From Methanomassiliicoccales archaeon (GTDB taxonomy: Archaea > Thermoplasmatota > Thermoplasmata > Methanomassiliicoccales > UBA472): 64,000 nucleotides of DNA. The stretch lies in contig JAVBWG010000011.1 of the NCBI GenBank assembly GCA_036677555.1, positions 14,177-78,176 on the forward strand, given 5' to 3'. Below are positions 48,757 through 64,000 of the stretch, one piece after another (within the stretch, counting starts at the first letter, position 1; every line of letters starts with the position of its first letter). The notes under the pieces were generated by a model that was not told where the DNA came from, did not search any database, and saw nothing but the letters and a program-made list of their open reading frames with translations. The position numbers and the translations under genes are program-made.

Positions 48757-48780
48757 TTAGTCAAATATCAAGCGCCACCC

Positions 48781-48880: not shown

Positions 48881-48881
48881 C

Positions 48882-48887
48882 TTTTTT
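48882..48887 (+). terminator. Oligo-T tract after tRNA-Glu
   Basis: T6 begins 2 nt after the discriminator base. Confidence 0.45.
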
Positions 48888-48928
48888 ACCGTCAAAAAAT
48901 TGATATAGCCAGACGTCTTTTTCGTATC

Positions 48929-49525
48929 ATGGAAGGCCTGAAAAAAACGTCAGACAAAACGTCGGACAAGAGGGCTTCCGGCCGCCCTAATCAGGGCAAG
49001 ACGGAGACGATAAGGCAGCGGAAGATAGACGTTTATCTGCCTACGGTGGAGCTCATGCAGCAGTGGAAGAAGGCGGCCGAGGTCTCGGGCATGCCTCTGT
49101 CGAAATACATCCTGGAGGTGGTGGAGCAGCATCGCATGGGTGCGGTGAGGGTCACCATGCCCCCGGCTTTGCTTGAAGAAAAAGCCAACAAGCTGGAGAA
49201 GGAGCTGGCAGCCTTGCAGATGCGTTTCGATACGTTGAACTTGGCCTTCCACAACCAGGAGGTCGAGCTTTCTCGGCTGTCCAGTGCCTATCAGAGCGCC
49301 AAGGGCGGAAGCGTGGACGTCACTATGGTCAGGAGTTTGATCCAGGTATTACAAAGAGGTCCGAAGGGTGGCATGCACATAATCGACCTGATGGAATCGA
49401 TGCAGTTCGACAAGAACGACAACGACAAGATCAATAGATGGAGCGACGGACTGAACTTCCTTATGGACATAGAACTGGTTGGAAAGGACGAACGTGGGAA
49501 CCTGCGGTGGAAGGATGCGCGCTGA
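48929..49525 (+). CDS. Island-encoded hypothetical protein with ribbon-helix-helix-like segment
   Basis: KIDVYLPTVELMQQWKKAAEVSGMPLSKYILEVV (RHH-like), a coiled-coil middle, and a C-terminal wHTH-like region. Its end overlaps the integrase start. Confidence 0.5.
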   Translation: MEGLKKTSDKTSDKRASGRPNQGKTETIRQRKIDVYLPTVELMQQWKKAAEVSGMPLSKYILEVVEQHRMGAVRVTMPPALLEEKANKLEKELAALQMRFDTLNLAFHNQEVELSRLSSAYQSAKGGSVDVTMVRSLIQVLQRGPKGGMHIIDLMESMQFDKNDNDKINRWSDGLNFLMDIELVGKDERGNLRWKDAR

Positions 49526-50510
49526 AGTGAGCGAAAAGCGGGAGATGATGAGCAGCGCCCTTCTCGACCCGGACATGTTCGACTTGCTGGACAGCTTCAG
49601 GACCGAATGCAACCTGCAGGGAATGAGCAAGAGCTCAACGACCAGTTACGTTTCGTCGATGCGCATCTTCATGTTCTTTTTGATGTCCAAGCGCAAGACG
49701 GTCTTCGAGGTGGACAAGGACGTTCTGAAGTCGTACATTGACTACCTGATCAACCAAAGGAAGATCGCCTACCGGACGCTGAGCTATAACTTCTCCGCCC
49801 TGGCGGCGTTCTATGAATGGTTGCTGTTCGAGAACAAGATAAAGGAGAACCCGGTGCAGGCAGTTCGGAAACGGTATTTGAAGCGGTACAAGAACGGGGA
49901 AGGAATGCAGCAGGAAGGCCGCAAGCTTATCTCCGTGGAGGAGATGGCCATGCTCGTAAGGTCGATTGTCAGTTTGCTCGACCGGGCGATCGTGGTCACC
50001 CTGGCCAAGACCGGGGTGAGAAGAGGCGAGCTAATCAGTATGGACGTGGACGACATCGATTGGCAGAAGATGTCCATCAAGCTCAAGCCCACGGCCAAGA
50101 GAAGTAACCGGTTGGTGTTCTTTGACGAAGAAGCAAAGCAGGTACTGATGGAATGGATGAGCATGCGCCGATTGTACGCTCGTCCCGATTCTAAAGCGCT
50201 CTTCATTAGCCAGAGCGGTGGAAGGCTGAACAAGAACCATGTCTACGATATCGTGGTCCTGCACGCGGGACTGGTCGGTCTACACGACGCAAGCTCGGAC
50301 AAGCTGGATGAGCATTTCACACCGCACTGTTGCCGCCACTGGTTTACAACCCACCTAAGAAGGGCAGGGATGCAGCGTGAGCATATACAGGAGCTCAGAG
50401 GGGACTCGCGTCCGGACGCTATTGACATCTACTACCATATCGACCCGGAGGACCTCCGGTTGGCCTATCTGGCGTTCATACCGAAGTTGGGACTGTGTTC
50501 AACGAGGTGA
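49515..50510 (+). CDS. Tyrosine recombinase / phage-type integrase (XerC/D-like)
   Basis: SAM-like N-domain (YVSSMRIFMFFL). Catalytic residues GVRRGE, HCCRHWF (HxxR), IDIYYH (Tyr). ATG 49515 is preferred over the track start at 49479. Confidence 0.9.
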   Translation: MRAEVSEKREMMSSALLDPDMFDLLDSFRTECNLQGMSKSSTTSYVSSMRIFMFFLMSKRKTVFEVDKDVLKSYIDYLINQRKIAYRTLSYNFSALAAFYEWLLFENKIKENPVQAVRKRYLKRYKNGEGMQQEGRKLISVEEMAMLVRSIVSLLDRAIVVTLAKTGVRRGELISMDVDDIDWQKMSIKLKPTAKRSNRLVFFDEEAKQVLMEWMSMRRLYARPDSKALFISQSGGRLNKNHVYDIVVLHAGLVGLHDASSDKLDEHFTPHCCRHWFTTHLRRAGMQREHIQELRGDSRPDAIDIYYHIDPEDLRLAYLAFIPKLGLCSTR

Positions 50511-51214
50511 TATTATGGGAAAGAGCCAGAAGACAGGAAAAATAGTGAACGTTGACTAAGAGCAACTTGAGATCAGAGATGTCGTTTCTATTGAATAGTA
50601 TGATGTTCACGCGTATGAGAGAATTGAACTTAGCGATATCGATGAGCCCGAAGCGACCCGTCGCTGGGGTGCGGTCATCTGCTAGGGACAGAAATTCTTG
50701 TTCATCCAGAGTTCGACACTTGATCCAGTTAAAAAAATTATATGAGTTCGATAATGCTTTTTGCTAGATGCTACAGCGTCCAGCATTAGCTCATCAACCA
50801 AACCGTTTGAATTTCTCCAACATCAACTATCAAGGTCGGGAGAAACGGTGCTTTCGATGGGCAAAGGACTGAAAAAGCGGTTCTACTCGAACTTCAACGA
50901 TGTCAACAAGGCCTATTTTGGCTGAATATCTGTCGGGACGTAATAGAAAACACCCGATTTTGGGCGTTTTCGATGAAGTTCGGGCCTCAAAGGTCATCTG
51001 TTAAATTCTAAAACCAGTAAAATTTCGCTCGGTCAACTGCCTAAGTCGGGCATTGAGGTTGAGTTTAATAATCGAGAGGAAAGGGAAAGTGACGTTTAGA
51101 AATGATACGCGCAAATTGAAAAATTGGGATTTTATGCGCTCATAATTTATCAATATGTATAATATTAATTATAATTATATAACGATATTTTACATATCAA
51201 TTGAACCGTGTGGA

Positions 51215-51880: not shown

Positions 51881-51976
51881 GGCAGCCCCTCCAATATTTC
51901 AATTTTATAAAGGAAAGAAATAACCGACAATAGACCGCTCCATTTAGAGATATATCTTTTCCAATTAGACTATGAC

Positions 51977-54900
51977 TTATTTTAGTTCTAATCCAGAGTT
52001 CACCTTTCTCAGCAGTTCATTGATTTTCGCTAGATCCTCTTTATTCTTCACTTTGGCGACATCCACTCGAAGGTGAAGCTTCAGATCGATATCGGGGTGT
52101 TGTCCGATGATGTCCGCGATAGCTTCGCTCAGGTTCTGCAAGTCTCCTATGGTGAGGTCCGCGTTTCCACTAAGGCCGCGTGGTCCAGGAACGGGTGTGG
52201 TTGATTTCGCAATCTTAAAAAATACGTTCTTAGATGCGCCCTCATCGCAGGGCCAAGAGGTCGAACCGGGAATAACTTCTATTAATCGCACCCGGACAGC
52301 CCCATCGATGGCCTCTCGTACGGTCTTCCACGGAAGATTGACCCGATGTTTTTTGGATAGAAAGAGGGCGACTGAATAGGCTGAAGCTTGTTCATCTTTC
52401 CACGCTTCATTCAAGTTTGGTGGAGTGATATCGAGGGTCTTGATCGGTTCAGGTGGCTGTCTGAGGCGAGCATCATCAGATAGCAAGCCGAGCGGGACCT
52501 CCTGTTCAAGCAGTGAAGCCGGTCCTGAGAGCATCCAAATATACCCCGCCTCGATGGCTTCCTTGATAGCGACTTCGACCACATCGGGAGGGGCCATTGG
52601 AATATGCATGCTTTCTTCAAAGCCGGATCGAGGCACCTTGATCGTCTTCGTCCCATCGAAGAGGTCCTTCACATCCTTAATCGAGATCTCTTCCCTCGAC
52701 CACAAACCGGTCAGTTCATCTCGGGCGAACATGCTTGATCGGATCGAAGTTAATTCCGCGAATTGTGGCAGGACAAGCTCCAGGCTAGGTTCCCTGAGAT
52801 CCGCCTCGCCAGGTGATTCTTTCCAAAAGGTCCTGATAGAGCGGTCTGGCCTCGTTAGGCGCAATACGAACTCACCCTGCAGCACGCCCTGCACCAAGGT
52901 GTCTAGGACCTCCTTACGCCTCAGCATCTTCGGTAGATGAGGGAACTGGGCGAACATACCAATGATATCGCTGACCCTTCTCGATTTGTCCCCCACTTTC
53001 CAGATGTCATATGGACCGTCAGGCAACAATGCCGAAGAGGTGATCGCCTGGTCCATGATCCTTGCCTTTTTCTCTGCCTTGATGGTTGCGAAGAGATCCG
53101 CACCGACGTTGATCTTGAAGGCGATGACATCGTTCTTCTCTGAAACGGTGACCACGATACAATATGCCTGAGCAATAGCCTCTGGCACGGACTTCTTAGA
53201 TCCATCCACATACGCGGAGACAGTGCTGAGGCGGCTCTCCCTGTCATCCCCTTTAACCTGTATTTGGGAGCGCACCTCATCCCAAGCGAGATAGTCCTTG
53301 ATCTTGTCCCGAGCACTTTGCAAAAGGTCCTTCGCCGGAGTGAGGATTATGATCGCGTTACGATATACGCGCGGTCGGTCCTCTGATGTCGTCTCATTGA
53401 TGAAGCGGGACGCCTCTGCGCTAGGCTTGCCGACCTCTGAAAAAGAGCGCGGCCCTAGAATTACTAGCTGGAGCTCACCGATATCCGCCACATCTGAAGG
53501 CCGTTCCGGCATATTGTAGACCTTAAGCCCAGAAGGTACGCCCGCCGTCAATGACCTGACACGCTTAGCGGTCTCATCGACCAGTCTGGATTCGACGAGG
53601 TCCGGAGATATCCGCACCAGCGCGTCGTCGTGCATGTGTTTGAGATTCGGCCTAGTGCCCAGCCTCCAGTTCTCCGGAAGCTCGTTCTTTCCACCGATGG
53701 CACTTTCCTCATCCAAGAACCAGGACTTATGGGTCCATGATAGCAGCGATTTCTGCAGATCGATCTTGTCCGGTCTGGAAGTACCGAGCATCACCATCAG
53801 ATCATGAGTTCGAGCTTTACGACCGATAGGTTGTGAATGTAAGAAGGTCGTGAAGACCGCCTGTTCCACCTCACGATGTCTGATTCCGGGCTGTTCGACC
53901 TGTATGCTCTTGGCCTTCTCAAGCTCGCCTTCGATTATCTTTGCCCATTCCTGCCTAGGGCCCTCAAAATCATCCGAGGCAGCGACTCCAGTCAGCTCCC
54001 TGGCTGCTTCGCTAAGTCCCTGCTTCTCTGGTTCTGCCAGGAAGACACTGACGCCGACCAAGGGTGAAGTGTCCCATTTACTCGCATCCCTCAGTGCTAA
54101 TGCGAACGTACGTAGAATACCCCTCGTCTTCTGGAAACCGTCCAAGCTGGTCCATTTGGTATAGAAAACATCCGTGAGTTCGGGGTGGAACGGATAGTTG
54201 TCGAGATATCGTTTCTCTGCGATCGCGCCTTCTTTCCGTGTCTCTTCGTCCAACTCAGCGATGCCTTTGAGAGCTTCGACCACCTGCGGTTTGAACGTAG
54301 AAGGATCCTTAATGGATTCGGGCTCAAAGAACCTGCGTCTGAGAATCTCCGCCACGTCGTCGCGACTGACCGGCTGCACACCTTCTTCTTTCTCACGACG
54401 GAAGATGTTGCCCATGTCATGGAGGAGCTCTTTACCCAGGTGGTCGCTCTTCTTGGGGTCAGTAGCTAAAAGCGATGCGATCAGTGCGCAGTTGGGTAGC
54501 TTGGTAGCGGCCTGTGTGAGACACTGGAAGAAGTTGAGAAGATTGTTCTTCCACTCGGGGTCCTGCGCCACCTTGACACGTGCGTACATCAAGACCTCGT
54601 CCAACAGAACGAGCGAGGCTAAACCATTCTTGGATGGAAGGGCGAGTATTTCCTTCAATAAAGGTTCGGCTGGATACTCCTCCCGCTCCTCCACTGATGA
54701 TGAGCCACTGAGGATCTTCAGCCCGGCGTCACCGCCGAGCTGGTAGGCCAGGATGCTCCAAGGATGTTTCAGCATGCGCGTCTTTCCATCTGGCCCCCTG
54801 GTCTTGACACCTACGAGCAGGTCGATCTTGTCAAAGACCAGAACGGCCATCCTAGCCCGGGGTAGTTGGACACCGATATGTGAACGAAAATCGAGAACGG

Positions 54901-55246
54901 AAGGTATGTCTGGAAGGCATTCTGGATCATTGAAGAGATGGTATAGGGTGATCAAGGTGTGGGTCTTGCCTCCACCGTAGGTGAGCTCCAACTGCCTTAC
55001 CGCCTTATCGTTCTGACCTGCCAACCGCAATGCCACGTCCTTGGCCAGTTCCCTCATGTTGTATGTCGGGTAAGTAAAGGCGAAGAATTTCTTGGGATCG
55101 CGGTATAAATCGGTACCTTCGTCCATTACAACATCATAGAGGTCGGCTGCGAACTGGGATAGGGAGAGGTCCCCATTCTTGAGGTCCTCACTCAACCTGA
55201 CAACCTGATGCCACGGCTTCCAATTGCTCTTGTTCCGCTCTTTCAT
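51977..55246 (-). CDS. DUF499-type P-loop ATPase (COG1483-like)
   Basis: FAADLYDV...FFAFTYPT...LELTYGGGKTHTL (Walker A), LVLLDEVLMY (Walker B). ATG 55246 has GGAGGT 7 nt upstream. Confidence 0.85.
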   Translation of the reverse strand: MKERNKSNWKPWHQVVRLSEDLKNGDLSLSQFAADLYDVVMDEGTDLYRDPKKFFAFTYPTYNMRELAKDVALRLAGQNDKAVRQLELTYGGGKTHTLITLYHLFNDPECLPDIPSVLDFRSHIGVQLPRARMAVLVFDKIDLLVGVKTRGPDGKTRMLKHPWSILAYQLGGDAGLKILSGSSSVEEREEYPAEPLLKEILALPSKNGLASLVLLDEVLMYARVKVAQDPEWKNNLLNFFQCLTQAATKLPNCALIASLLATDPKKSDHLGKELLHDMGNIFRREKEEGVQPVSRDDVAEILRRRFFEPESIKDPSTFKPQVVEALKGIAELDEETRKEGAIAEKRYLDNYPFHPELTDVFYTKWTSLDGFQKTRGILRTFALALRDASKWDTSPLVGVSVFLAEPEKQGLSEAARELTGVAASDDFEGPRQEWAKIIEGELEKAKSIQVEQPGIRHREVEQAVFTTFLHSQPIGRKARTHDLMVMLGTSRPDKIDLQKSLLSWTHKSWFLDEESAIGGKNELPENWRLGTRPNLKHMHDDALVRISPDLVESRLVDETAKRVRSLTAGVPSGLKVYNMPERPSDVADIGELQLVILGPRSFSEVGKPSAEASRFINETTSEDRPRVYRNAIIILTPAKDLLQSARDKIKDYLAWDEVRSQIQVKGDDRESRLSTVSAYVDGSKKSVPEAIAQAYCIVVTVSEKNDVIAFKINVGADLFATIKAEKKARIMDQAITSSALLPDGPYDIWKVGDKSRRVSDIIGMFAQFPHLPKMLRRKEVLDTLVQGVLQGEFVLRLTRPDRSIRTFWKESPGEADLREPSLELVLPQFAELTSIRSSMFARDELTGLWSREEISIKDVKDLFDGTKTIKVPRSGFEESMHIPMAPPDVVEVAIKEAIEAGYIWMLSGPASLLEQEVPLGLLSDDARLRQPPEPIKTLDITPPNLNEAWKDEQASAYSVALFLSKKHRVNLPWKTVREAIDGAVRVRLIEVIPGSTSWPCDEGASKNVFFKIAKSTTPVPGPRGLSGNADLTIGDLQNLSEAIADIIGQHPDIDLKLHLRVDVAKVKNKEDLAKINELLRKVNSGLELK

Positions 55247-55250
55247 CTCT

Positions 55251-56050
55251 TCAACCTCCAAAATTTGATAAATCCCTGGGTGCGCTTACCGCGCCACCCC
55301 TGGATATGATATGATTGCTGATGCTCTCCAACAAGCTTCTTTCCTCGTCTCCTTCCTTGGAGAGTTCTATTATCGCTTGCAGGATATGATGGAACGTTTT
55401 ATTCTTCAACAGCCCGTTCCCATCTAGATATTCATCGACCTTCGCCATGTCACCGTCTTTCCACAGATGCATGAGTTTATGCATTCGATCGATCATCGGA
55501 GCAGGCCGGCCATTGTTGTCCAAACCAAGAGTTTTACCAACGCGTTTGTTCCATTGTTTCAATCTAAGGGCGCTACTGGTGCCTTCCTCGAAGACATCCT
55601 CTTCTAGAACATCGCCTTCACCCTCATCCGGTTCTTCTATTCCTCCCGACCTGAGGAGTACATCATACTCACCTACGAGGGCACTATCCGAAAGGTCGCA
55701 GGATACCGCATAAAGAATGCAAGAACCGGCCGGTGCATCCCCAAATCCAAAGTCGTGACGATGCAACAAGTAGTAAGTTGTGATATTATCAAGGTCGCGG
55801 TCTCGTTCACCATCTTCACCTAGGACCCGTCCAACAACGAAGTCCATTACAATTCGTCTCACCTCGACGAGAAATTCTGAAACTGTCATGATTTGACCGG
55901 GATTGTCGGCCTTTTTTACAACTGAGTGCTTACTGTATGCCTCGAGCGCAGGACCCGTAGCAGCCCAGATAAAGTCAGGACCGCGAATTCCAGAATCCCA
56001 ATACTCACGAAGACGAAGCTGAATGTTAGAACGCATTTCTTCCAAGACCT
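55251..56050. repeat. About 0.8-kb high-identity direct repeat with 58321-59125 (3' ends of the two methyltransferase genes)
   Basis: The C-terminal 265 codons align without gaps until the acidic linker and have few substitutions (VLEEMRSNIQLRLREYWD...SISNHIISRGGAV). Confidence 0.8.
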
Positions 56051-58304
56051 GTGCGTCCCATCCTTGCCGCGCAGCGAGAGGTCTTTTTTTACATACTAAC
56101 CATATTGAAGAAGATAATGCCGCTGACGACAATGCTCTTGATCTAGTAGCTCGCTCAGTTTGAATTGGCCAACTGGATTCTACCACAAAACCGGCTCTAA
56201 TGATACTCGATACTAAAGTTTCCCAAGCATCTGGTTTTTTATGAGCGAAGACAATAGTCAAAATACCATTTTGGTTGAGCAAATTGTAACATTTTTGGAA
56301 TGTTTGTGCCATCCCGTTTTCATATGCCTGTTTTGAGAGAGCCGAATTGCCCGCAAATCTGCCTGAATCGTCGATCAGCTCACCATCTTGTTTTTTACTG
56401 TCCCATTTAATAGCAAGTGGCATTTTAAAAACAGCATTATGTTCATCATCTAGATCATAAAGGATCCTTCGAAGCCATACATAAAAGAAATCCATTGTGT
56501 CCGAATAAGGTATCGCATCATAATATGGTGGATCTGTTGTAATTAAATCATATGGACCTTTTAATTTATTACTTATTGCTGAAGAATTTATTATTATCGG
56601 TTTTTCCAAGCCGCTTACTACGAGATTGCTCATCATACGATTTGCAGCAATCATAGAATCCAACATTGAAAAGAAAGAGCCACATCCATCTGCAATAATT
56701 GAGACCTCAGCAAAATCCCAACTCACTGGAAGAGCAAATCTTGAAAATACATTTCTTATTTGTTCATTCGGCACATTCCATGAACAAATTGTTGAGGAAT
56801 GATCCAGTAGCTTATCGAATACACAAACTAGATAGGAGATTATTGCCTTCCTCCATTCATCTGGATATCCATTTTCTTTAAGTATTTCCATTAATGATCT
56901 GATCTTTAATACAAAGATGCCGTGACCAAATAATTGTCTTTTTGTGAAAACCATCGACCATTTATTGATTCCATACTTGTCAACAGAAAATGCCCGACTC
57001 GCCCCATTACCTCCTATTGGAGTCGGCTCATCTGGAACACCGAATGGGATGTTATTGAAAATTTCTTCCACCCTCGCCCCTGCATCTTCCGCTGCTTTAA
57101 GATCCTCTGCAACCGGTAGTCGATACTCCTTTCCTTTCTCCCCATCAATGACCACTGCCGTCATCATCGCTCCTATGCGGCCTTCAACGCCCTCGCGACG
57201 GATATCTTCCATGCTCATCGCTACCGTGCCTGGCTTGCCACAGTGAGGGCACCATGCACCATTACGGCTCATCGTGCCTTGCCCAAGACGCTTGTCATTT
57301 TCAATTCTTTCAGACTTACTGAGCCCTTCCTGCGCAACATTTGATTGTATCTCAAAGACCAACGACGATCGGTCATCATTTGTCCTCATCATCAGTAGAA
57401 CTCGCTTTCTTTCATTCTTGCATAGCCACCTCGTTTTCAGCAGAGGTATCGTCGACCGGCAGTTCTTGCAGGTGACCGTCTTTGCCCAGAGATATGCCAC
57501 CGTCGGTTTGCCTGCAACGCTTGGATAATAAGGTGTCAGATCATTCTTTGCCTGCTCCAACACCCACCACCCCCACGAACGCACATGCCAGGACAAATCG
57601 GCAATAGGCATTTCGGCTAAGATGTTGGATTCCAAAGCTAATTCGTCGAATGAAGCAAGTGATTTTTGCTTTTTATTTTTGGCTGACGGTTTGATCCCTT
57701 GCATTTTATAGAAATCATCCATGAACTCTTTATTCTCGAGGATAAAGTTTGGCAATGGTAGTTTCTGCCCAGCCAATTGCTGTGGGTACTCCAAAGTGCA
57801 TTTCTCTATGAACCAGGCTACAGGATTGATGTCGATGGACGTAGCCTCACATCCTAGTCTCATTGCTTCTAAAGGGATTGCTCCACCGCCTGCAAAGGGG
57901 TCCAATACCTTGGGCACCTCGCCACCATATGCTTTCCTAATTTCCTTCCGGAAGTAGTTTAGGTCAGATTCGGATTCCCTGCCCCAGTGGAGGATTCCTC
58001 CTTCTGTTTCCTCGACAAAGAATGTGTTCTCCTTGCCGTCCTTCTTTGTGCGCTTCTGCACGCGCACGACTTTTCCCCCGATCCGCTCCAGCAATTCCTT
58101 CCGCTTATCCGGGTCACCCGGATCTGGCAACAAGGTGGCAATGAGCGCCGCCCGGCAAGCTGCCAGGGGCCTTCGTGCTGGCCAGATGTGCAATGTTGAT
58201 ATATGTCCATGACGCACGTTCTTCTCTTGCAATGATTCAATGGATGCTTGCTTTAGGCAGAATCCTCTCTCAATCAATCTCGGTTTATTCTCATTCTCTG
58301 CCAT
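55251..58304 (-). CDS. DUF1156-type DNA methyltransferase with Zn ribbon (copy 2, promoter-distal)
   Basis: STLHIWPARRPLAA, DPFAGGGAIPLEA (motif I), CKNCRS...CPHCGKPG, ITTDPPYYDA (motif IV). ATG 58304; the track start at 58418 runs into the upstream gene. Confidence 0.85.
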   Translation of the reverse strand: MAENENKPRLIERGFCLKQASIESLQEKNVRHGHISTLHIWPARRPLAACRAALIATLLPDPGDPDKRKELLERIGGKVVRVQKRTKKDGKENTFFVEETEGGILHWGRESESDLNYFRKEIRKAYGGEVPKVLDPFAGGGAIPLEAMRLGCEATSIDINPVAWFIEKCTLEYPQQLAGQKLPLPNFILENKEFMDDFYKMQGIKPSAKNKKQKSLASFDELALESNILAEMPIADLSWHVRSWGWWVLEQAKNDLTPYYPSVAGKPTVAYLWAKTVTCKNCRSTIPLLKTRWLCKNERKRVLLMMRTNDDRSSLVFEIQSNVAQEGLSKSERIENDKRLGQGTMSRNGAWCPHCGKPGTVAMSMEDIRREGVEGRIGAMMTAVVIDGEKGKEYRLPVAEDLKAAEDAGARVEEIFNNIPFGVPDEPTPIGGNGASRAFSVDKYGINKWSMVFTKRQLFGHGIFVLKIRSLMEILKENGYPDEWRKAIISYLVCVFDKLLDHSSTICSWNVPNEQIRNVFSRFALPVSWDFAEVSIIADGCGSFFSMLDSMIAANRMMSNLVVSGLEKPIIINSSAISNKLKGPYDLITTDPPYYDAIPYSDTMDFFYVWLRRILYDLDDEHNAVFKMPLAIKWDSKKQDGELIDDSGRFAGNSALSKQAYENGMAQTFQKCYNLLNQNGILTIVFAHKKPDAWETLVSSIIRAGFVVESSWPIQTERATRSRALSSAALSSSIWLVCKKRPLAARQGWDAQVLEEMRSNIQLRLREYWDSGIRGPDFIWAATGPALEAYSKHSVVKKADNPGQIMTVSEFLVEVRRIVMDFVVGRVLGEDGERDRDLDNITTYYLLHRHDFGFGDAPAGSCILYAVSCDLSDSALVGEYDVLLRSGGIEEPDEGEGDVLEEDVFEEGTSSALRLKQWNKRVGKTLGLDNNGRPAPMIDRMHKLMHLWKDGDMAKVDEYLDGNGLLKNKTFHHILQAIIELSKEGDEERSLLESISNHIISRGGAVSAPRDLSNFGG
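58075..58184. repeat. 110-bp block identical to 61124-61233 (direct repeat inside the two methyltransferase genes)
   Basis: Compared base by base: cccccgatccgctccagcaattcc...cttcgtgctggcca is identical in both copies. Offset 3049 bp. Confidence 0.95.
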
Positions 58305-58320
58305 CAACCAGCCCCTCCAT

Positions 58321-61300
58321 TTAGCCCCCAAAATCCGAGAATCCCTTTGGGGCATTGACCGCACCACCCCTGGAAATGATATGATTGCTGATGCTCTCCA
58401 ACAGGCTTCTTTCCTCATCTCCCTCCTTAGAGAGTTCTATTATCGCTTGCAGGATATGATGGAAGGTCTTGTTCTTGAGGAGCCCATTGTTAACTAGATA
58501 ATCATCGACCTTCGCTATATCGCCATCCTTCCACAGTTGCATTAGCTTGTGCACCCGATCGATCATCGGTGCAGGACGACCATTGCTATCCATTCCCAAG
58601 TTCTTGCTCTTACGCTTGTTCCACGCCTTCAATCTGAAGGTGCTGCTGGTGCCTTCCTCGATGAAATCCTCTTCGGTTTCCTCACCCTCGTCTTCCGCGG
58701 GCTCTTCCATTCCTCCAGATCTGAGGAGGATATCATTTTCGCCCGCAAGGGCACTGTCTGAAAGGTCGCAGGATACTGCGTATAAGATGCAAGAGCCCGC
58801 CGGAGCATCCCCAAACCCGAAGTCATGACGGTGCAATAGATAGTAAGTCGTGATGTTGTCCAAATCGCGGTCTCTTTCACCCTCTTCCCTCAGGACGCGG
58901 CCGACCACGAAATCCATGACAATCCGCCTCACTTCAATTAAAAATTCTGTGACCGTCATTAATTGACCTGGGTCATTCGCTTTCTTCACAATCGCGTGCT
59001 TGCTATATGACTCAAGTGCAGGACCGGTAGCCGCCCAAATGAAGTCTGGACCGCGAATTCCAGCGTCCCAATACTCACGCAGACGAAGTTGAATGTTGGA
59101 ACGCATTTCTTCAAGGACCTTGTTGTCCCATCCTGGTTTCGATTCATTAGAACGTTTCCTGCAAACGAGCCATACGGAAGATGATAATGCTGCAGAGGAC
59201 AGAGCCCTTGTACGATTGCCCATCTCCGTTTGTATCGGCCAACTTGCTTCGACTGTGAAACCGGATCGTACGATTGCCGAGACTAGAGTCTCCCAAGCTT
59301 CTGGCTGCTTATGGGCGAACACCATCACGAATCTACCATTGGAGGTAAGTGATTCTCTGCAGTTTGAGAAAACATCAGCCATGCCATCTTCATAGGCGAT
59401 ACGTGAACTCTCCCGGTTCCCCGAGAATCGCGAAGAATCATCGATTAGCTCTCCATCATTTTTGTCCTTGTTCCATTTGGGTGCAAGAGCCTCCTTGAAT
59501 GATCCTTCGAATTCATCTGAGAATCCCCACATTGTTCTTCTAAGCCATACATAGAAGAAATCCATGAGAAGTGAGTAAGAGATTGCGTCATAGTATGGTG
59601 GGTCTGTCACAATCACATCATATTTTTCGGCAAATTGTTGTTTAGCACTTTGATTATCTACTCGCACTTTCGAATTCGGAGAGAATGATTTCAGAGAGTG
59701 ATCAATATAGTGGCAAATAATATTGAGTTGATTCCAATAAGATCCTGTCTTGTTACCGATTGGATTGGTCTCACAGTAATCCCATGCAATGGGCATGCGA
59801 TATCCTGAGAATGTCCCAGATACATTCTGACGAGTGACATCCCAATGACATACAGCACTGGATCTATCAACCGTTCTGTCGACTGCAATGCATAGGTAAC
59901 TCATGATTGCATCTGCCCATTCCTTCGGAACATCGGAAGAATCCATCAATATTCTTGCTTCCCGTGTGTACTTTACGAAGGCTGCTAGAGCATTTAGTTG
60001 TCTGCGAGTGAATTGCTTGCCCCAAGTGTTTGCTCCATATTGAACACACCACGTGTTGCCCTTTGAATCTTCAACAATTTCTTCGCCAGGGATTCCAAAA
60101 GGGATATCTTGAAACCGGGCTAGAAGATTAATATCTAGGCCTGTCCCTGACTCAACCTCAAGCTGCGATGGGGTTCTAAACTCCCGAATATCGCCACTTT
60201 CAATGACCACGGCGTACATTTCACTATCAAAATGGCCTCTTGCATACTGATCTCTCAAGGCCAATTGAATATCTTCCATCGTCATTGACACGGTGCCTGG
60301 CTTGCCGCAGAAAGGACACCACGCCCCCTTACCTCCTTTTGTTCCAATTGTCTCTGATTTTGGCAAATGGGCAGCTTCATATGGTGTACATTCAATAATG
60401 CTATACGAGATCCTGTTGGCTACGGAATCGGGGTTAATTTTGAGCAGAATCTGCCTCCCATTTTTTTTACATAGCCATCTCGTTTTCATAAGGGGAATGC
60501 TCGCACGGCAATTCTTGCACTTCACAGTGCGAGCCCATAGATACGCTACAGTCGGCTTGCCATCGCTAGAATGATAATACATTTCAAGGTCATTCTTTGC
60601 TTTCTGCAGTACCCACGAACCCCAGGCACGCACGTGCCAGGCCAAATCGGCCAATGGAGTTTCTAATGATTTGCCAGAAACCATCTTCTCCCCGTCGAAA
60701 GAGGCGAGCGAGCTCTGCTTCTTCATCTTGGCCGATGGTTTGATTCCCTGTGCCTCACAGAACTTGTCAATAAACTCCTTGTTCTCGAGGATGAAGTCAG
60801 GCAGGGGCACCTTCTTCCCAGCCAGGCGCTGCGGGTACTCCAATGTGCATTTCTCGATGAACCAGGCTACAGGATTGATGTCTATGGCTGTGGCTTCGCA
60901 TCCCAGTCTCATCGCTTCTAGTGGAATCGCTCCTCCTCCGGCAAAAGGATCCAGCACCTTAGGTGCCCTGCCACCATATGCTTTCCTTATCTCCTCCCGG
61001 AAATAGTCTAGGTCCGGTCCTGATTCCCTTCCCCAGTGGAGAATGCCTCCCTCTGTCTCCTCGACAAAGCGCACTTCCTCCTTGCCGTCCTTCTTGGTGC
61101 GCTTCTGCACTCGCACGACTTTGCCCCCGATCCGCTCCAGCAATTCCTTCCGCTTATCCGGGTCACCCGGATCTGGCAACAAGGTGGCAATGAGCGCCGC
61201 CCGGCAAGCTGCCAGGGGCCTTCGTGCTGGCCATATATGCAATGTGGATATGTGGCCATAACGCACGCTCTTCTCATGCACAGAGTTAATGGATGCTTGC

Positions 61301-61353
61301 TTGAGGCAGAACCCTCTTTCTATCAATCTCGGTTTATCTTCATTCTCTGCCAT
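58321..61353 (-). CDS. DUF1156-type DNA methyltransferase with Zn ribbon (copy 1, promoter-proximal)
   Basis: Same motifs (DPFAGGGAIPLEA, CKNCRA...CPFCGKPG, VTDPPYYDA). ATG 61353 shares TGATG with the helicase stop. Confidence 0.85.
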   Translation of the reverse strand: MAENEDKPRLIERGFCLKQASINSVHEKSVRYGHISTLHIWPARRPLAACRAALIATLLPDPGDPDKRKELLERIGGKVVRVQKRTKKDGKEEVRFVEETEGGILHWGRESGPDLDYFREEIRKAYGGRAPKVLDPFAGGGAIPLEAMRLGCEATAIDINPVAWFIEKCTLEYPQRLAGKKVPLPDFILENKEFIDKFCEAQGIKPSAKMKKQSSLASFDGEKMVSGKSLETPLADLAWHVRAWGSWVLQKAKNDLEMYYHSSDGKPTVAYLWARTVKCKNCRASIPLMKTRWLCKKNGRQILLKINPDSVANRISYSIIECTPYEAAHLPKSETIGTKGGKGAWCPFCGKPGTVSMTMEDIQLALRDQYARGHFDSEMYAVVIESGDIREFRTPSQLEVESGTGLDINLLARFQDIPFGIPGEEIVEDSKGNTWCVQYGANTWGKQFTRRQLNALAAFVKYTREARILMDSSDVPKEWADAIMSYLCIAVDRTVDRSSAVCHWDVTRQNVSGTFSGYRMPIAWDYCETNPIGNKTGSYWNQLNIICHYIDHSLKSFSPNSKVRVDNQSAKQQFAEKYDVIVTDPPYYDAISYSLLMDFFYVWLRRTMWGFSDEFEGSFKEALAPKWNKDKNDGELIDDSSRFSGNRESSRIAYEDGMADVFSNCRESLTSNGRFVMVFAHKQPEAWETLVSAIVRSGFTVEASWPIQTEMGNRTRALSSAALSSSVWLVCRKRSNESKPGWDNKVLEEMRSNIQLRLREYWDAGIRGPDFIWAATGPALESYSKHAIVKKANDPGQLMTVTEFLIEVRRIVMDFVVGRVLREEGERDRDLDNITTYYLLHRHDFGFGDAPAGSCILYAVSCDLSDSALAGENDILLRSGGMEEPAEDEGEETEEDFIEEGTSSTFRLKAWNKRKSKNLGMDSNGRPAPMIDRVHKLMQLWKDGDIAKVDDYLVNNGLLKNKTFHHILQAIIELSKEGDEERSLLESISNHIISRGGAVNAPKGFSDFGG
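61124..61233. repeat. Partner copy of the 110-bp identical block
   Basis: See 58075-58184. Confidence 0.95.
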
Positions 61354-64000
61354 CAACCAGTCCCTCCACCATTTCCAATAGATGCACGCAAAATGTCCCC
61401 TTCATTGACCATGAAACTGCCCTTTTGCTTGAAGCTTAAACGGTAGGCCGGGTCTTGTACACGCATAAGACGAGGCACGCTCTCGCAATCGAAAACAGCA
61501 TAGAGCCAGTACTTATGGCGCATGTTCGCCGCACGGTCCCACTCATTCTCGGTGATCTCCACGCCGCCGCCACCGCCCCTTCCCTTCACTTCGATACTTC
61601 TGATCTCCCCATCAGGACGACGGGAAAGTAGATCGAAGCCAGGGTGCGCTTGCAATCCCGCTTGCATCGCCAGTTCAGGCGTGTGCACATCGATGACCTC
61701 GGCACCCTCATTTTCCTCCATGGACCTCACTATATCCATGGACATAGCCTCGATGTCTAGATCATATCTCTTCCAATCCTCAGGATCAGATGAAGGCATG
61801 ACGAGGGCGTGGGCGATCATCTCCACATCGCCAATATCAAGCAGATCGATCTCTTTCGCCAACGCTTGGAACGATCTGTCCCTGACCTCGGTGAGCTCGC
61901 GTTGCATCTCACGGACCCGTTCCATCTTCAATCCGACCTCGGGGTCGTCCCTCTTCTTGCCCAATTCAGTGCGTTTCTTGGCCAGCTCCACTTCTTGGAG
62001 GTTGAAACCCCTGCGCATCAATTCCTGCCTTGAGGCGTTCAGTTTGGAAATACGCTCATGGCAGGCCCGCAACATCTCTCCCTGGATATCATGTACCAGG
62101 AAGGTCGGCACCATCCTAGTCAATGCCTCCCCTTTGGACATCATGGTCAAGGTCTTCATATCATGTCCTTCGTTCCCTCGAAGCAGAAGGAGCTTTTCCA
62201 GGGGTGCTTGCACCATCGCTCCCGATTCGTCTTGCACCACCGCTACCAATCGTTCATCGACGATGATCTCTCGAGCTAATGCTGGTACCGATGGGTCCGC
62301 ACGGCGAACGATGCTCAATTTGGCAAGATGGAACAGGTATGGGCTTTTTGCCGATGGATCGATGAACACACCTCCCCTTAGCGCGGCGGCTGAGCACCTC
62401 TCGTCGAGGAGATCGCTTATGCGGTCGAAGATGATCTCACCAGGGCGAAGGAAGATCGCCTTGGCCTCCTTGGATCGGTTGACGGTCATGGCACCGCGAA
62501 TATCATCCGGATAATCCTCCATCAGCGGAATGATCCTATCAAGGGCCTTCGGTTTCTGAGCGAAAAGGGAGAAGGTACCCCTCAGATCCCCTTCCCATCC
62601 GATGCCTAGGAGCGGCAGTGCCGACTCTAAGAAACTTGCGACGTATGCGGGTAGCAAATAACGATATTCCTCTTGAGCTAATCTTTCGCGCTCTTCGGGG
62701 AGATATCTTGCCACATCGCCACCTCCCCCGAATAACGACTCTTCCTTGGCTTTGATGGCTCTTACCTGCTCCTCGGTGAGCTTACCCTCGATGATGCGGC
62801 TAGCACCATCCTCGTCCCTGAGCGCCATGGCCATGATATCTTTGATGCTGACACCTTCGAAAACGCGGCCGATGACGTCGAACACCTTGTCCGACCGCAT
62901 TTCTAGGCGGATCCTCTCCATCTTCTCCAGCAGGGTCTGTAGTACCTTACCCTCTCGGGTGTTCGAGGAGATCATATTGATTATTACAACAGGGTCATGC
63001 ATCTGACCGTAACGATGGATCCGACCCATCCTCTGCTCGAGGCGTGCCGGATTCCAAGGAATGTCGTAATTGATCATTAGCCAGCAGAACTGAAGGTTGA
63101 TCCCCTCACCTGCGGCATCGGTGGCGATCAGATACTGAGCCCCATCGGCATGATGGTCTTTGCGGAAGAATGCGATCTGTTCCTCTCGGGCGGCGAAATC
63201 CATTCCGCCGTGGATCGAAGCTATCTTGCCGGTTAGCCCCTTTCCCTCCAATTTACGCATTAAGTAAGTGAGGGTGTCCCGATGCTCCGTAAAAATGATG
63301 GCCTTCTCATCGCGATATTTGTCATCGGTAAGCAATTCTTCCAGTCTGTCGAATTTTGATTCCGTCCCTCGTCGCATGACCTCATCGGACAAAGCGAGTA
63401 GCTTTTCAACCTCGATCTTCTCTTTTTCCAATTGAGAGAGGTTGAAGTTCACCATGACATCCATGATCTTCTTCTCATCGACCTCGTTCTGCTCCTCATC
63501 GCCTTCTGAGGACTCTTCTTCTCCCGTCCGATCCTCGAAGTCATCGCTCACCTTCAGGCGGCTTTGTTGTGCCTGTAATTTCTGTTCGTTCAAATCTCCA
63601 CATCGCAAGGCGTCAATCAGAAATTGAAGTCTCTCCACCCTTCTTTCGAACGAACGCTTTAAAGCATAGGTGGATGAGGCCATACGTCGCTGGAAAACGC
63701 TAGCTGCTAAGCTTGCCGCAGAACGGTTCAGCATTCGCGCCATATTATAGAAGTTATCGATATAGACGGTCGTCTTCTCGTAGAGATCTCTTTCATAGCC
63801 ATCACCCTCGGAGAGCGCGTAACTGCCCGTGTGACATTCCCGTGATGGGTAGATCTTCGAGCCGTCGAAGCGGACCATCTCTTCCTTGGTACGACGAATG
63901 AAATGCTCCTTCCTACAATCTTCTGGGAACGCATCAAATGCTTCCTTATTTGGGAGTAGCGTTGGTTCTAGTAGCCGCCAGAGACAGTAATATGGATAAT
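61353..64000 (-). CDS. SNF2/SF2 helicase with C-terminal PD-(D/E)xK-like (DUF3883-like) module; N-terminus beyond window
   Basis: Frame is open from 64000 (..YPYYCLWRLLEPTLLPNKEAFDAFPEDCRKEHFIRRTKEEMVRFDG). LIATDAAGEGINLQ, PWNPARLEQRMGRIHRYGQ. Tail GFDLLSRRPDGEIRSIEVKG...ITENEW...KYWLYAVF. Confidence 0.85.
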   Translation of the reverse strand, partial: YPYYCLWRLLEPTLLPNKEAFDAFPEDCRKEHFIRRTKEEMVRFDGSKIYPSRECHTGSYALSEGDGYERDLYEKTTVYIDNFYNMARMLNRSAASLAASVFQRRMASSTYALKRSFERRVERLQFLIDALRCGDLNEQKLQAQQSRLKVSDDFEDRTGEEESSEGDEEQNEVDEKKIMDVMVNFNLSQLEKEKIEVEKLLALSDEVMRRGTESKFDRLEELLTDDKYRDEKAIIFTEHRDTLTYLMRKLEGKGLTGKIASIHGGMDFAAREEQIAFFRKDHHADGAQYLIATDAAGEGINLQFCWLMINYDIPWNPARLEQRMGRIHRYGQMHDPVVIINMISSNTREGKVLQTLLEKMERIRLEMRSDKVFDVIGRVFEGVSIKDIMAMALRDEDGASRIIEGKLTEEQVRAIKAKEESLFGGGGDVARYLPEERERLAQEEYRYLLPAYVASFLESALPLLGIGWEGDLRGTFSLFAQKPKALDRIIPLMEDYPDDIRGAMTVNRSKEAKAIFLRPGEIIFDRISDLLDERCSAAALRGGVFIDPSAKSPYLFHLAKLSIVRRADPSVPALAREIIVDERLVAVVQDESGAMVQAPLEKLLLLRGNEGHDMKTLTMMSKGEALTRMVPTFLVHDIQGEMLRACHERISKLNASRQELMRRGFNLQEVELAKKRTELGKKRDDPEVGLKMERVREMQRELTEVRDRSFQALAKEIDLLDIGDVEMIAHALVMPSSDPEDWKRYDLDIEAMSMDIVRSMEENEGAEVIDVHTPELAMQAGLQAHPGFDLLSRRPDGEIRSIEVKGRGGGGGVEITENEWDRAANMRHKYWLYAVFDCESVPRLMRVQDPAYRLSFKQKGSFMVNEGDILRASIGNGGGTG

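What the first reader, a model, noticed from the sequence alone, without database searches (positions are those of the whole stretch)
55251..61353. Tandem DUF1156 methyltransferase paralogues with mosaic conservation: homogenised ends, diversified core
Seen: two directly repeated genes of 1010 and 1017 codons. The N-terminal ~330 codons and C-terminal ~265 codons are near-identical by eye. They include a perfectly identical 110-bp DNA block (58075-58184 = 61124-61233) and near-identical gene junctions (ctggttgATGgcagagaatga). The central ~400 codons, after the first CxxC and up to and around DPPYYD, align only weakly. Compare ...LLMMRTNDDRSSLVFEIQSNVAQEG... with ...LLKINPDSVANRISYSIIECTPYEAAH.... 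Inference: the core is probably the target-recognition region. If so, the island encodes two specificities or a heteromeric MTase. The homogenised flanks suggest ongoing gene conversion. They are also substrates for recombination that could collapse the pair into a single chimeric gene or swap cores, a route to specificity diversification. I do not recall this being described for this family.
Basis: partly seen in the sequence, partly recalled or inferred. Interest (0 to 1): 0.75.

Follow-up and report, generated by a model that had tools for sequence, protein, structure and literature searches.

The report
Two-methylase Hma defence operon, archaeal island
An archaeal anti-virus (Hma) gene cluster carries two complete, intact copies of its DNA-marking enzyme side by side, each with a different DNA-reading module; this is a rare layout that probably gives the system two target specificities, but the copies are old alleles brought together rather than a fresh duplicate being kept alike at its ends.

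Summary
Two directly repeated minus-strand genes (58321-61353, 1010 codons; 55251-58304, 1017 codons) share about 82% (N-terminal) and 75% (C-terminal) protein identity. Their ~290-codon core is only 33% identical. The 110-bp identical block is confirmed.

They are HmaB methylases of an Hma defence operon (also called a Type-1 DUF499-centred BREX-related system), hmaA-hmaB-hmaB-hmaC. It lies on a low-GC island with an integrase in a Methanomassiliicoccales archaeon. The core lies where published work places the nested target-recognition domain with its 4-Cys zinc finger.

The "homogenised ends" reading is mostly wrong:
- Flank DNA is only ~79% identical, and synonymous sites are saturated outside codons 1-180 and the last 60.
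- The A-B mosaic (0.82/0.33/0.75) matches that of any pair of alleles from different genomes.
- Strains whose hmaA and hmaC are 91-99% identical to the window's carry one different methylase.

So these are two old alleles from a hypervariable pool, joined head to tail. Copy-to-copy conversion is limited to the 5' ~120-180 codons, including the recent 110-bp tract.

Full tandem pairs were absent from 168 related loci. One fused double methylase exists elsewhere. Dual specificity is inferred, not shown.

The parts
61353..64000 (-). hmaA, 3' ~880 codons. SNF2-type helicase with a C-terminal NOV_C (PD-(D/E)xK) nuclease domain. The 5' end is cut off by the window end. Its TGA stop overlaps the ATG of methylase A by one base.
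   Evidence: Pfam Helicase_C 1.9e-24 and NOV_C 1.2e-14. PADLOC HmaA 4.4e-91, matching profile positions 315-1131 of 1176. 90-99% nt identity to hmaA of L004 and 92-96% to L001. Relatives are 1186-1187 aa.
58321..61353 (-). hmaB copy A: DUF1156 N6-adenine methylase, 1010 aa, intact
   Evidence: Pfam DUF1156 3.3e-15. PADLOC HmaB 3.6e-109. Motif I at 60931-60951 and motif IV DPPY at 59593-59604. Retains all family-invariant columns.
59638..60483 (-). Variable core of A (codons 291-572), the nested target-recognition insert. The CxxC pairs lie at 60508-60519 (just upstream of this interval) and 60307-60318.
   Evidence: 33% aa identity to B's core. The best relative anywhere is 37-38% identical. 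In the 1.84-billion representative library the best full-length matches are 29-37% identical and partial fragments reach at most 46%. Family entropy peaks at A 301-580. The AlphaFold model is confident here, pLDDT 80-95.
58305..58320 (-). A-B junction. 16 nt (atggaggggctggttg) copy the 3' tail of hmaA, including a GGAGG ribosome-binding motif. They are joined directly to A's TAA stop.
   Evidence: The tail is closest to the hmaA tail of L008 (atggaggggcttgttg), not to the window's own hmaA tail (ggtggagggactggttg). No long shared k-mer spans the join.
55251..58304 (-). hmaB copy B: DUF1156 N6-adenine methylase, 1017 aa, intact (= database protein P0005)
   Evidence: Pfam DUF1156 1.3e-16. PADLOC HmaB 7.5e-107. 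Motif I at 57882-57902 and DPPY at 56523-56534. Exact match to P0005.
56568..57434 (-). Variable core of B (codons 291-579), a second and different target-recognition insert. The CxxC pairs lie at 57459-57470 (just upstream of this interval) and 57240-57251.
   Evidence: Best relatives are 48-53% identical. Patches of 0.67-0.80 nt identity to the L004 and L005 alleles in codons 241-400.
61124..61233 (-). 110-bp tract in A that is identical to 58075-58184 in B (codons 41-77, DUF1156 domain). A recent gene-conversion tract.
   Evidence: 0 of 20,000 shuffles reach this run length. pS between A and B is 0.03 here, against 0.44-0.83 for A or B to every other allele.
58075..58184 (-). Partner copy of the 110-bp identical tract, in B
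51977..55246 (-). hmaC: DUF499 AAA+ ATPase, 1089 aa from the ATG at 55246. It begins 4 nt after B's stop.
   Evidence: Pfam DUF499 1.5e-15. PADLOC HmaC 2.9e-77. It clusters at >=90% with the hmaC of the L001 and L004 loci. 93-98% nt identity to L004.
49479..50510 (+). Tyrosine recombinase (integrase) at the edge of the low-GC island. It is homologous to the integrases next to the single-methylase Hma operons L001 and L004.
   Evidence: Pfam Phage_integrase 1.1e-24. Blastn 85-90% identity to L001 and L004. GC is 0.41-0.54 from ~48 kb onward, against 0.54-0.63 (mostly ~0.60) upstream.

Best explanation
The locus is an Hma anti-phage operon (Payne 2021), also called a Type-1 DUF499-centred BREX-related restriction-modification-like system. 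It sits on an integrase-bearing genomic island of a Methanomassiliicoccales archaeon. It has two complete methylase genes instead of one: hmaA - hmaB(A) - hmaB(B) - hmaC.

Each HmaB has four parts:
- a DUF1156 N-terminal domain;
- a split N6-adenine methylase fold;
- a large target-recognition insert, with a 4-Cys zinc finger, nested between motifs I/II and IV;
- a conserved C-terminal region.

A and B differ almost only in that insert. They are not a young duplicate. They are two anciently diverged alleles from a population-wide pool of hmaB alleles that recombine between strains while hmaA and hmaC stay nearly identical.

The tandem state arose by a non-homologous head-to-tail join. The stop codon of one allele is fused to 16 nt of hmaA tail that carries the ribosome-binding site of the next allele. 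Both copies therefore remain translatable in one transcript.

The similar ends are kept mainly by purifying selection on the catalytic fold and, by inference, on surfaces that contact the shared HmaA and HmaC partners. Copy-to-copy gene conversion has acted only on the first ~120-180 codons, most recently over 110 bp.

Inferred function: both enzymes methylate the host genome at two different motifs. If HmaB also supplies sequence recognition to the HmaA/HmaC restriction machinery, as Mod or PglX do in Type III and BREX systems, the cell restricts DNA lacking either mark. That would include viruses grown on neighbours that carry only one allele.
For: System identity: PADLOC HmaA, HmaB and HmaC hits with E-values from 1e-77 to 1e-109, and Pfam DUF1156, DUF499, Helicase_C and NOV_C. 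Literature: PMC8565338, PMC11232893, PMC12839542.

Host: neighbouring genes cluster with Methanomassiliicoccales proteins.

Old alleles:
- pS is 0.70-0.80 between A and B over codons 181-960, including regions with pN of only 0.07-0.13.
- All seven alleles of the clade are equally saturated against each other.
- hmaA and hmaC of the window are 90-99% (L004) and 87-96% (L001) identical in DNA, yet those loci have a single, different hmaB.

The mosaic is a family trait:
- A-B is 0.82/0.33/0.75, against N 0.75-0.83, core 0.34-0.54 and C 0.66-0.80 for the other 20 pairs.
- A-B block identity tracks family conservation, Spearman 0.53, p = 7e-5.
- Entropy is highest at A 301-580.

Recombination between strains: the last 750 nt of A are 88-96% identical to L001, with pS 0.20-0.33, next to a saturated segment. 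The last ~45 nt of B are nearly identical to L004.

Local conversion: the 110-bp tract, and A and B being nearest neighbours only in codons 1-120.

Both copies functional: all invariant family columns are kept, motifs and cysteines are intact, and pN is far below pS.

Junction anatomy and ribosome-binding site.

Rarity: 0 full tandems in 168 related loci, of which 97 have room on both sides.
Against: - No methylome, expression or read-level data exist. Activity of either copy, the two motifs, and any role of HmaB in restriction targeting are all inferred.
- In the one experimental Hma study, HmaA alone protected against T4 and over-expressed HmaB did not change phage sensitivity (PMC11232893). 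A classical modification/restriction coupling is therefore unproven for this family.
- The order of events cannot be resolved: capture of a second allele, versus an old duplication followed by allele replacement.
- The window comes from a metagenome-assembled contig.
- pS in codons 1-180 (0.45-0.55) and in the last 60 codons (~0.5) is below saturation. Part of the end similarity may therefore be older conversion, or constraint on translational-coupling sequences.
Confidence: 0.62

Rival explanations
1. A gene duplicated in place. The two ends are kept alike by continuing gene conversion (concerted evolution), while the core diverged rapidly under diversifying selection.
For: The 110-bp perfect tract is far longer than chance. 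pS between A and B is lower in codons 1-180 (0.03-0.55) than between either copy and other alleles (0.49-0.90). A and B are nearest neighbours in codons 1-120.
Against: Flank DNA is only ~79% identical. pS is saturated at 0.70-0.80 in the conserved C-terminal 586-960. The A-B identity profile equals that of unrelated allele pairs. A's 3' end is closer to L001 (88-96%) than to B (72-85%). The closest operons, with 91-99% identical hmaA and hmaC, have one methylase. B's upstream tail resembles a different hmaA lineage.
Confidence: 0.12
2. Assembly artefact. Two strains in the sample each carry one allele, and the assembler concatenated them into a false tandem.
For: The source is a metagenome-assembled contig. 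Strains with single alternative alleles do exist. An independent short-read assembly (L169) breaks inside B's 3' end, at the 35-nt block shared with A. I could not retrieve any contig spanning the junction.
Against: The A-stop to hmaA-tail join shares at most 2-3 nt with the alternative contexts, so no k-mer overlap could create it. The copies are only 67% identical overall. A contig break at a repeat shared by the two genes is what a real two-copy genome would also give. B carries its own ribosome-binding site in a tidy 16-nt spacer.
Confidence: 0.05
3. The two proteins form an obligate heteromer, or one serves only as a recognition or scaffold subunit. In that case the pair specifies one composite or asymmetric target rather than two independent ones.
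For: The conserved N- and C-terminal domains could mediate pairing. Type I (M2S) and Type III (Mod2) enzymes work as methylase dimers (general knowledge). Both genes are co-transcribed with only 16 nt between them.
Against: Every close relative works with a single HmaB, so the family does not need two different subunits. Both copies keep full catalytic motifs and all invariant residues. No structural or interaction data are available.
Confidence: 0.1
4. A switching device. Recombination between the direct repeats, possibly helped by the nearby integrase, repeatedly collapses and re-expands the pair or makes chimeras, giving phase-variable specificity.
For: Direct repeats with identical blocks of 110, 35, 28 and 26 nt are substrates for deletion. 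Methylases of related systems are switched by programmed rearrangements that keep the N and C termini constant (PMC9881135). An integrase lies 1.5 kb beyond hmaC.
Against: There are no inverted repeats, silent cassettes or partial copies in the window. The integrase is shared with single-methylase relatives and looks like the island's own integrase. Deletion between direct repeats is irreversible. The L001 allele is not a collapse product of this pair, because its 3' end is A-like, not B-like.
Confidence: 0.07

Closest known systems
Hma system (HmaA helicase-nuclease, HmaB methylase, HmaC ATPase; Payne et al. 2021, PMC8565338), also called the Type-1 DUF499-centred BREX-related system (PMC12839542)
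   Same: All three protein families are present, in the same order and with overlapping or tightly spaced genes. The helicase has a NOV_C nuclease. The methylase has DUF1156, a nested TRD with 4 Cys, and a conserved C-terminal region. It lies on a mobile defence island.
   Different: There are two full-length methylase genes in tandem with different TRDs. The descriptions I could read give one methylase per system and do not mention duplication. None of 168 related loci has it.
Type III restriction-modification mod alleles (Haemophilus/Neisseria; Bayliss et al. 2006, PMC1557822)
   Same: A hypervariable central TRD lies between conserved N- and C-terminal parts. The partner gene (res there, hmaA/hmaC here) is conserved between strains. 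Alleles are exchanged horizontally.
   Different: It is a different enzyme family and fold arrangement. Alternative mod alleles sit at one locus, one per strain, with ON/OFF switching by repeat tracts. Here two alleles coexist in one operon and no repeat tract is present.
BREX type 1 PglX and class 1 DISARM methylase shufflons (programmed inversions; PMC9881135)
   Same: The middle, specificity-determining part of a defence methylase varies while the N and C termini are kept. Extra methylase sequence lies next to the active gene. BREX is evolutionarily related to Hma according to PMC12839542.
   Different: Those loci use inverted partial cassettes plus an invertase, and express one variant at a time. 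Here both copies are complete, directly repeated and presumably co-expressed. No inverted repeats were found.
Fused double DUF1156 methylase P0328 (locus L172, metagenome contig)
   Same: Two DUF1156 methylase units lie head to tail, immediately upstream of a DUF499 ATPase gene.
   Different: The units are fused in one 1749-aa ORF and are uniformly ~58% identical without a strongly divergent core. The second unit lacks a 16-aa conserved segment. They are only 28-32% identical to the window proteins.

Membership tests
Hma / Type-1 DUF499-centred BREX-related system | SNF2-type helicase carrying a C-terminal NOV_C (PD-(D/E)xK) nuclease domain (HmaA) | tested here: met
   Pfam Helicase_C 1.9e-24 and NOV_C 1.2e-14. 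PADLOC HmaA 4.4e-91. The N-terminal third lies outside the window.
Hma / Type-1 DUF499-centred BREX-related system | DUF1156 methylase with the TRD insert nested in the methylase fold and a 4-Cys motif (HmaB) | tested here: met
   Pfam DUF1156 with E-values of 1e-15 to 1e-16. PADLOC HmaB 1e-107 to 1e-109. Motif I is at aa 135-141 and DPPY at aa 584-587 (A) / 591-594 (B), with a ~400-aa insert between them. The CxxC pairs are invariant.
Hma / Type-1 DUF499-centred BREX-related system | DUF499 AAA+ ATPase (HmaC) directly downstream | tested here: met
   Pfam DUF499 1.5e-15. PADLOC HmaC 2.9e-77.
Hma / Type-1 DUF499-centred BREX-related system | Simple three-gene core without a standalone DUF3780 gene or HKD-nuclease helicase (this separates Type-1 from Type-2) | tested here: met
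   The helicase nuclease is NOV_C, not PLD/HKD. The small ORF after hmaC (51215-51793) has no Pfam hit. The core here has four genes because hmaB is doubled.
Hma / Type-1 DUF499-centred BREX-related system | Anti-phage activity | not testable with these tools
   Shown only for HmaA of Halomonas meridiana against T4 (PMC11232893).
NCBIfam NF042963 'anti-phage-associated DUF1156' equivalog | Whole-protein score above the curated cut-off (1000 bits) | tested here: not met
   178 and 172 bits. These proteins belong to a different DUF1156 subfamily from that model.
N6-adenine DNA methylase | SAM-binding motif I (FxGxG) and catalytic motif IV (DPPY), both intact in both copies | tested here: met
   DPFAGGG and DPPY are read directly in both copies. 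Pfam N6_N4_Mtase scores 20.8 and 24.7 bits, below the 26.7 cut-off, so the profile match alone is sub-threshold.
N6-adenine DNA methylase | Demonstrated methyl transfer to a defined motif | not testable with these tools
   Needs a methylome or enzyme assay.
Concerted evolution (gene conversion) of tandem paralogues | Paralogues within the genome are closer to each other than to orthologues elsewhere, at synonymous sites | tested here: not met
   This holds only for codons 1-120 and weakly up to codon 180. Over codons 181-960, pS between A and B is 0.70-0.80, the same as between genomes. A's 3' end is closer to L001.
Concerted evolution (gene conversion) of tandem paralogues | Identity tracts longer than chance allows | tested here: met
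   The 110-nt run is reached by 0 of 20,000 shuffles. The run of 36 identical codons is reached by 0 of 20,000.
Programmed-inversion shufflon of a defence methylase (PglX type) | Inverted repeats, partial silent cassettes and a dedicated invertase | tested here: not met
   There are no further methylase fragments in the window. There are no meaningful inverted repeats in 47-64 kb. The only recombinase is an island-type integrase shared with single-copy relatives.

The most novel reading that the evidence does not exclude
The pair is a working dual-specificity Hma system. One helicase-nuclease/ATPase restriction module is programmed by two interchangeable methylase/specificity subunits. The tandem state is a normal intermediate in a recombinational cycle: capture of a foreign allele, co-existence, then collapse or chimera formation through the conserved ends. 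Through this cycle archaeal populations would turn over Hma specificities without ever passing through an unprotected state.
Probability: 0.25. Interest if true: 0.6.

Novelty: new variant of a known kind. Interest (0 to 1): 0.4.

Why it matters
Hma is widespread (26 phyla in PMC8565338; thousands of taxa in PMC12839542) but mechanistically almost unstudied. It is not even established that HmaB protects self DNA or directs restriction.

This archaeal lineage offers a natural experiment. The hmaA and hmaC genes are nearly identical between strains, yet they are combined with completely different methylase recognition inserts, and in one strain with two at once. This argues that sequence specificity resides in HmaB alone. 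It also gives a clean set of constructs (A, B, A+B, and the relatives' alleles) for methylome and phage-challenge tests.

The tandem layout also suggests how a restriction-modification-like system can acquire a new specificity without a lethal mismatch between modification and restriction.

As genomics the finding is modest. The mosaic itself is the expected behaviour of a methylase with a nested recognition domain.

Tried and rejected
- The first structure model, from 18 sequences, was poor (pLDDT 65). The 115-sequence model was better (pLDDT 74.9), but I used it only for domain boundaries.
- A sequence search of the PDB found no solved relative.
- Exact look-ups of A and B in the contig index returned nothing, so I could not fetch the source record or an independent contig across the junction.
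- A junction-sequence scan of viral contigs was empty.
- Cluster 'representative' P0122 turned out to be unrelated.
- Plasmid records with two DUF1156 hits (H23, H31) showed only one DUF1156 gene within 9 kb of the hit I inspected.
- I first read the blastn HSPs as showing a Campbell-type insertion, with the outer halves resident-like and the inner halves foreign. Finer windows rejected this: similarity to L004 and L001 stops at the methylase gene borders, and A's 3' end, not B's, is L001-like.
- Positive selection in the core cannot be tested because synonymous sites are saturated.
- A literature search for 'HmaB' was swamped by 'hmAb' antibody papers.

Full report
**1. The observation**

All large genes between 52 and 64 kb are on the minus strand. 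In gene order they are:
- a helicase ORF, 61353 to beyond 63878, cut by the window end;
- methylase A, 58321-61353, 1010 aa;
- methylase B, 55251-58304, 1017 aa from the MAENEN start, identical to database protein P0005;
- a DUF499 ATPase, 51977-55246.

A global alignment of A and B gives 64% amino-acid identity overall. By alignment column it is 82% for 1-290, 33% for 291-585, 61% for 586-750 and 83% for 751-1023.

The 110-bp block 58075-58184 = 61124-61233 is exactly identical and cannot be extended. No shuffle out of 20,000 produced a run that long, even when only codons 1-180 were shuffled. A codon-level shuffle that keeps the amino-acid differences in place also never reached the observed 36 identical codons. 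The shared start context ctggttgATGgcagagaatga is real.

Flank DNA identity is about 79%.

**2. What it is**

PADLOC profiles identify the four proteins as HmaA (4.4e-91), HmaB (3.6e-109 and 7.5e-107) and HmaC (2.9e-77). Pfam gives Helicase_C + NOV_C, DUF1156 and DUF499.

Three papers describe this system:
- Hma was proposed as a helicase-methylase-ATPase defence candidate by Payne et al. 2021 (PMC8565338).
- HmaA of Halomonas meridiana was shown to protect against T4 through the nickase activity of its NOV_C domain. HmaB over-expression had no detectable effect there (PMC11232893).
- A 2026 comparative study renames the family 'Type-1 DUF499-centred BREX-related system'. It describes the methylase as a DUF1156 helical domain, an N6-adenine methylase core with a large recognition insert after core strand 2 that carries a 4-Cys zinc finger, and three C-terminal HTH-like domains (PMC12839542).

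In A and B, motif I (DPFAGGG) is at aa 135-141. DPPY is at aa 584-587 in A and 591-594 in B. The two CxxC pairs lie between these motifs.

It is also the most variable stretch across 115 family members, with entropy of 1.2-2.8 bits at A 301-580, against 0.1-0.7 in the conserved N and C blocks. The AlphaFold model built from those 115 sequences (pLDDT 74.9, pTM 0.70) folds this stretch confidently as a separate alpha+beta module.

The host is a Methanomassiliicoccales archaeon. The RIO1 kinase, family-B DNA polymerase, arginyl-tRNA synthetase and other window proteins cluster at >=90% with proteins named for that order. The operon lies in a low-GC segment (0.41-0.54 from ~48 kb, against ~0.60). 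That segment ends with a tyrosine integrase at 49479-50510.

**3. Is the mosaic caused by homogenisation of the ends?**

Four tests say mostly no.

(a) Synonymous divergence. pS between A and B is 0.03 in the 110-bp tract and 0.45-0.55 in the rest of codons 1-180. It is 0.70-0.80, which is saturation, from codon 181 to about 960. That span includes C-terminal segments where pN is only 0.07-0.13. pS is about 0.5 in the last 60 codons. Conservation of most of the C-terminal half is therefore purifying selection on protein sequence, not recent DNA exchange.

(b) Comparison with alleles from other genomes. Five close relatives (P0001-P0004 and P0006; loci L001, L004, L005, L006, L008) show the same pattern against A, against B and against each other. 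Identity is 0.75-0.83 for N, 0.34-0.54 for the core and 0.66-0.80 for C. The A-B values of 0.82/0.33/0.75 fall inside those ranges. A-B block identity correlates with family-wide conservation, Spearman 0.53, p = 7e-5.

(c) Nearest-neighbour scan in 120-nt windows. A and B are each other's closest sequence only in codons 1-120. From codon 761 to the end, A is 88-96% identical to the L001 allele but only 72-85% to B.

(d) Operon context. The window's hmaA and hmaC are 90-99% identical in DNA to those of L004, and 87-96% identical to those of L001. The window's hmaC protein clusters at >=90% with theirs. Yet identity falls to 70-85% at the methylase borders and to ~50% in the core. All five related operons contain a single hmaB. 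The L004 contig also carries a >=90% identical RIO1 kinase, which suggests a closely related strain.

The A/B split is therefore far older than the split between these operons.

**4. How the tandem was built**

Immediately after A's TAA stop come 16 nt (atggaggggctggttg) and then B's ATG. These 16 nt are a copy of the last bases of an hmaA gene, including a GGAGG motif. They match the hmaA tail of L008 (atggaggggcttgttg) better than the window's own hmaA tail (ggtggagggactggttg). A's last ~45 nt are also L008-like. B's last ~45 nt plus the start of hmaC are almost identical to L004 and L001.

The repeat unit is thus 'hmaA tail with ribosome-binding site + complete methylase ORF', joined without homology.

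This can be read in two ways:
- a second, foreign allele was captured by an illegitimate join on one side and homologous exchange near or in hmaC on the other;
- an old microhomology-mediated duplication was later overwritten by allele replacement.

I cannot separate these two readings.

The join shares no long k-mer with the alternative single-copy contexts, so an assembler could not have produced it by overlap. An independent short-read assembly (L169) is 100% identical to 50070-55389 and stops inside the 35-nt block that A and B share (55360-55394 = 58430-58464). That is the behaviour expected of a real repeat, but it does not prove the tandem.

**5. Recombination**

Exchange between strains within hmaB is evident. 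For the A/L001 pair, pS jumps from 0.79 (codons 573-740) to 0.33 and 0.20 (codons 741-950). This places a breakpoint near codon 750, between a shared 3' end and unrelated cores. B's insert has patches of 0.67-0.80 identity to L004 and L005 in codons 241-400.

Both inserts are unique among public proteins:
- For A's insert, the best relative is 37-38% identical in the 5.8-billion-cluster search. In the 1.84-billion representative library the best full-length matches are 29-37% identical and partial fragments reach at most 46%. That library could hide closer relatives inside A's own 50% cluster.
- For B's insert, the best relatives are 48-53% identical.

I therefore could not demonstrate reuse of the same insert on different backbones.

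**6. How rare is the layout?**

Among 168 related loci, none has two full-length hmaB genes within 10 kb. The set comprises 80 species-representative genomes, 80 metagenome contigs and 8 contigs of the closest relatives. Of these, 97 have at least 3.2 kb on both sides of the gene. The rule of three puts the frequency below about 3% in this subfamily.

Three loci carry short extra fragments:
- L032 has a 61-aa N-terminal piece.
- L048 has a 109-aa N-terminal piece, with other genes inserted between hmaA and hmaB. This fits the 'insertion hotspot' reported for Halomonas.
- L149 has a 95-aa C-terminal piece.

A distant relative, P0328 (locus L172), is a single 1749-aa ORF made of two DUF1156 methylase units that are 58% identical. 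It is followed by a DUF499 gene. Doubling of this methylase has therefore happened at least twice, but in a different form.

The window contains no silent cassettes or inverted repeats, so this is not a PglX-type shufflon (PMC9881135).

**7. Function (inferred)**

Both copies keep every column that is invariant across 115 homologues. They keep motif I, motif IV and the four cysteines, and they show pN far below pS wherever pS is measurable. B has its own ribosome-binding site, and only 16 nt separate it from A. Both are therefore probably made from one transcript.

The simplest reading is two active N6-adenine methylases with different targets. Nearly identical HmaA and HmaC proteins coexist with unrelated recognition inserts in different strains. 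Sequence specificity of the system therefore most likely resides in HmaB. The conserved HmaB ends are plausible docking surfaces for the shared partners.

If HmaB also guides restriction, two alleles double the set of sites that mark DNA as foreign. They would also block viruses that were modified in neighbours carrying only one of the alleles.

None of this has been tested. The only experimental paper on Hma found no HmaB effect.

**8. Comparison and verdict**

The closest known parallel for the allele pattern is the Type III mod gene, which has a hypervariable central recognition region between conserved ends and a conserved res partner (PMC1557822). The parallel for 'vary the middle, keep the ends' in a related defence methylase is BREX PglX (PMC9881135).

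What is unusual here is the coexistence of two complete alleles in direct tandem inside one Hma operon, in an archaeon, with a short recent conversion tract. I rate it a new variant of a known kind. It has moderate interest, mainly as a natural handle on how Hma specificity is encoded.

Noticed in passing
window 48000-64000; integrase 49479-50510 (+); ORF 48929-49525 (+): The Hma operon sits on a low-GC island (0.41-0.54, against ~0.60 upstream). At its inner edge is a tyrosine integrase and a 198-aa ORF. These are 85-90% identical in DNA to genes beside the single-methylase Hma operons L001 and L004. L001 carries extra cargo (HTH-PIN-ankyrin, radical SAM, AAA, PRTase genes) between hmaC and the integrase. 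No tRNA gene lies nearby (the only ones are at 13-15 kb), and the attachment sites were not identified.
   Followed up: partly
L169 (= window 50070-55389); shared block 55360-55394 = 58430-58464: An independent short-read assembly (SRR22741940, the same contig seen in 3 samples) is 100% identical to the window. It terminates inside the 35-nt block shared by the 3' ends of A and B, as expected at a genuine repeat in a k=31 graph.
   Followed up: yes
L172 534-5783 (protein P0328), followed by a DUF499 gene at 5815-8526: A 1749-aa ORF consists of two DUF1156 methylase units fused head to tail. The units are 58% identical along their whole length. The first has NPPY and the second DPPY, and the second lacks a 16-aa conserved segment. 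This is a second, independent doubling of an Hma-type methylase.
   Followed up: partly
L048 6451-6726 and L032 501-659; L149 21061-21345: Short orphan fragments of hmaB lie near otherwise single-copy Hma operons. In L048, four other ORFs sit between hmaA and hmaB. The main L048 methylase ORF is 1460 aa, with an N-terminal extension. These look like scars of insertion or allele replacement at the hmaA/hmaB border.
   Followed up: partly
window 58321-59100 (A codons ~750-1010) versus L001 ~12250-13051: The last ~750 nt of methylase A are 88-96% identical to the L001 allele, although the rest of the two genes is 50-82% identical. This is a clear inter-strain recombination breakpoint inside hmaB.
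   Followed up: yes
L001 6441-10001, L004 4438-8001, L005 295-3858 (hmaA of relatives): Full-length HmaA proteins of this clade (1186-1187 aa) carry an N-terminal HTH_3/HTH_31 (XRE-type) domain according to precomputed Pfam hits. The corresponding part of the window's hmaA lies beyond base 64000.
   Followed up: no
window 58305-58418: B's reading frame stays open upstream to an ATG at 58418, giving a 1055-aa ORF that overlaps A's 3' end. The extension has no counterpart in any homologue, and the database protein starts at MAENEN, so it is probably not used.
   Followed up: partly
window 46003-47336: Adjacent RIO1 kinase and KH-domain (Krr1/Pno1-like) genes form a typically archaeal ribosome-biogenesis pair. 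This was the first clue that the host is an archaeon.
   Followed up: yes
methylase A residues 25-47, 132-159 and 709-724 in model mafb86615bffa: AlphaFold confidence is lowest (pLDDT < 50) in some of the most conserved sequence blocks: the DUF1156 core, the SAM-binding motif I region and the 'RALSSAALSSS' block. These may be segments that order only on binding a ligand, DNA or a partner.
   Followed up: no
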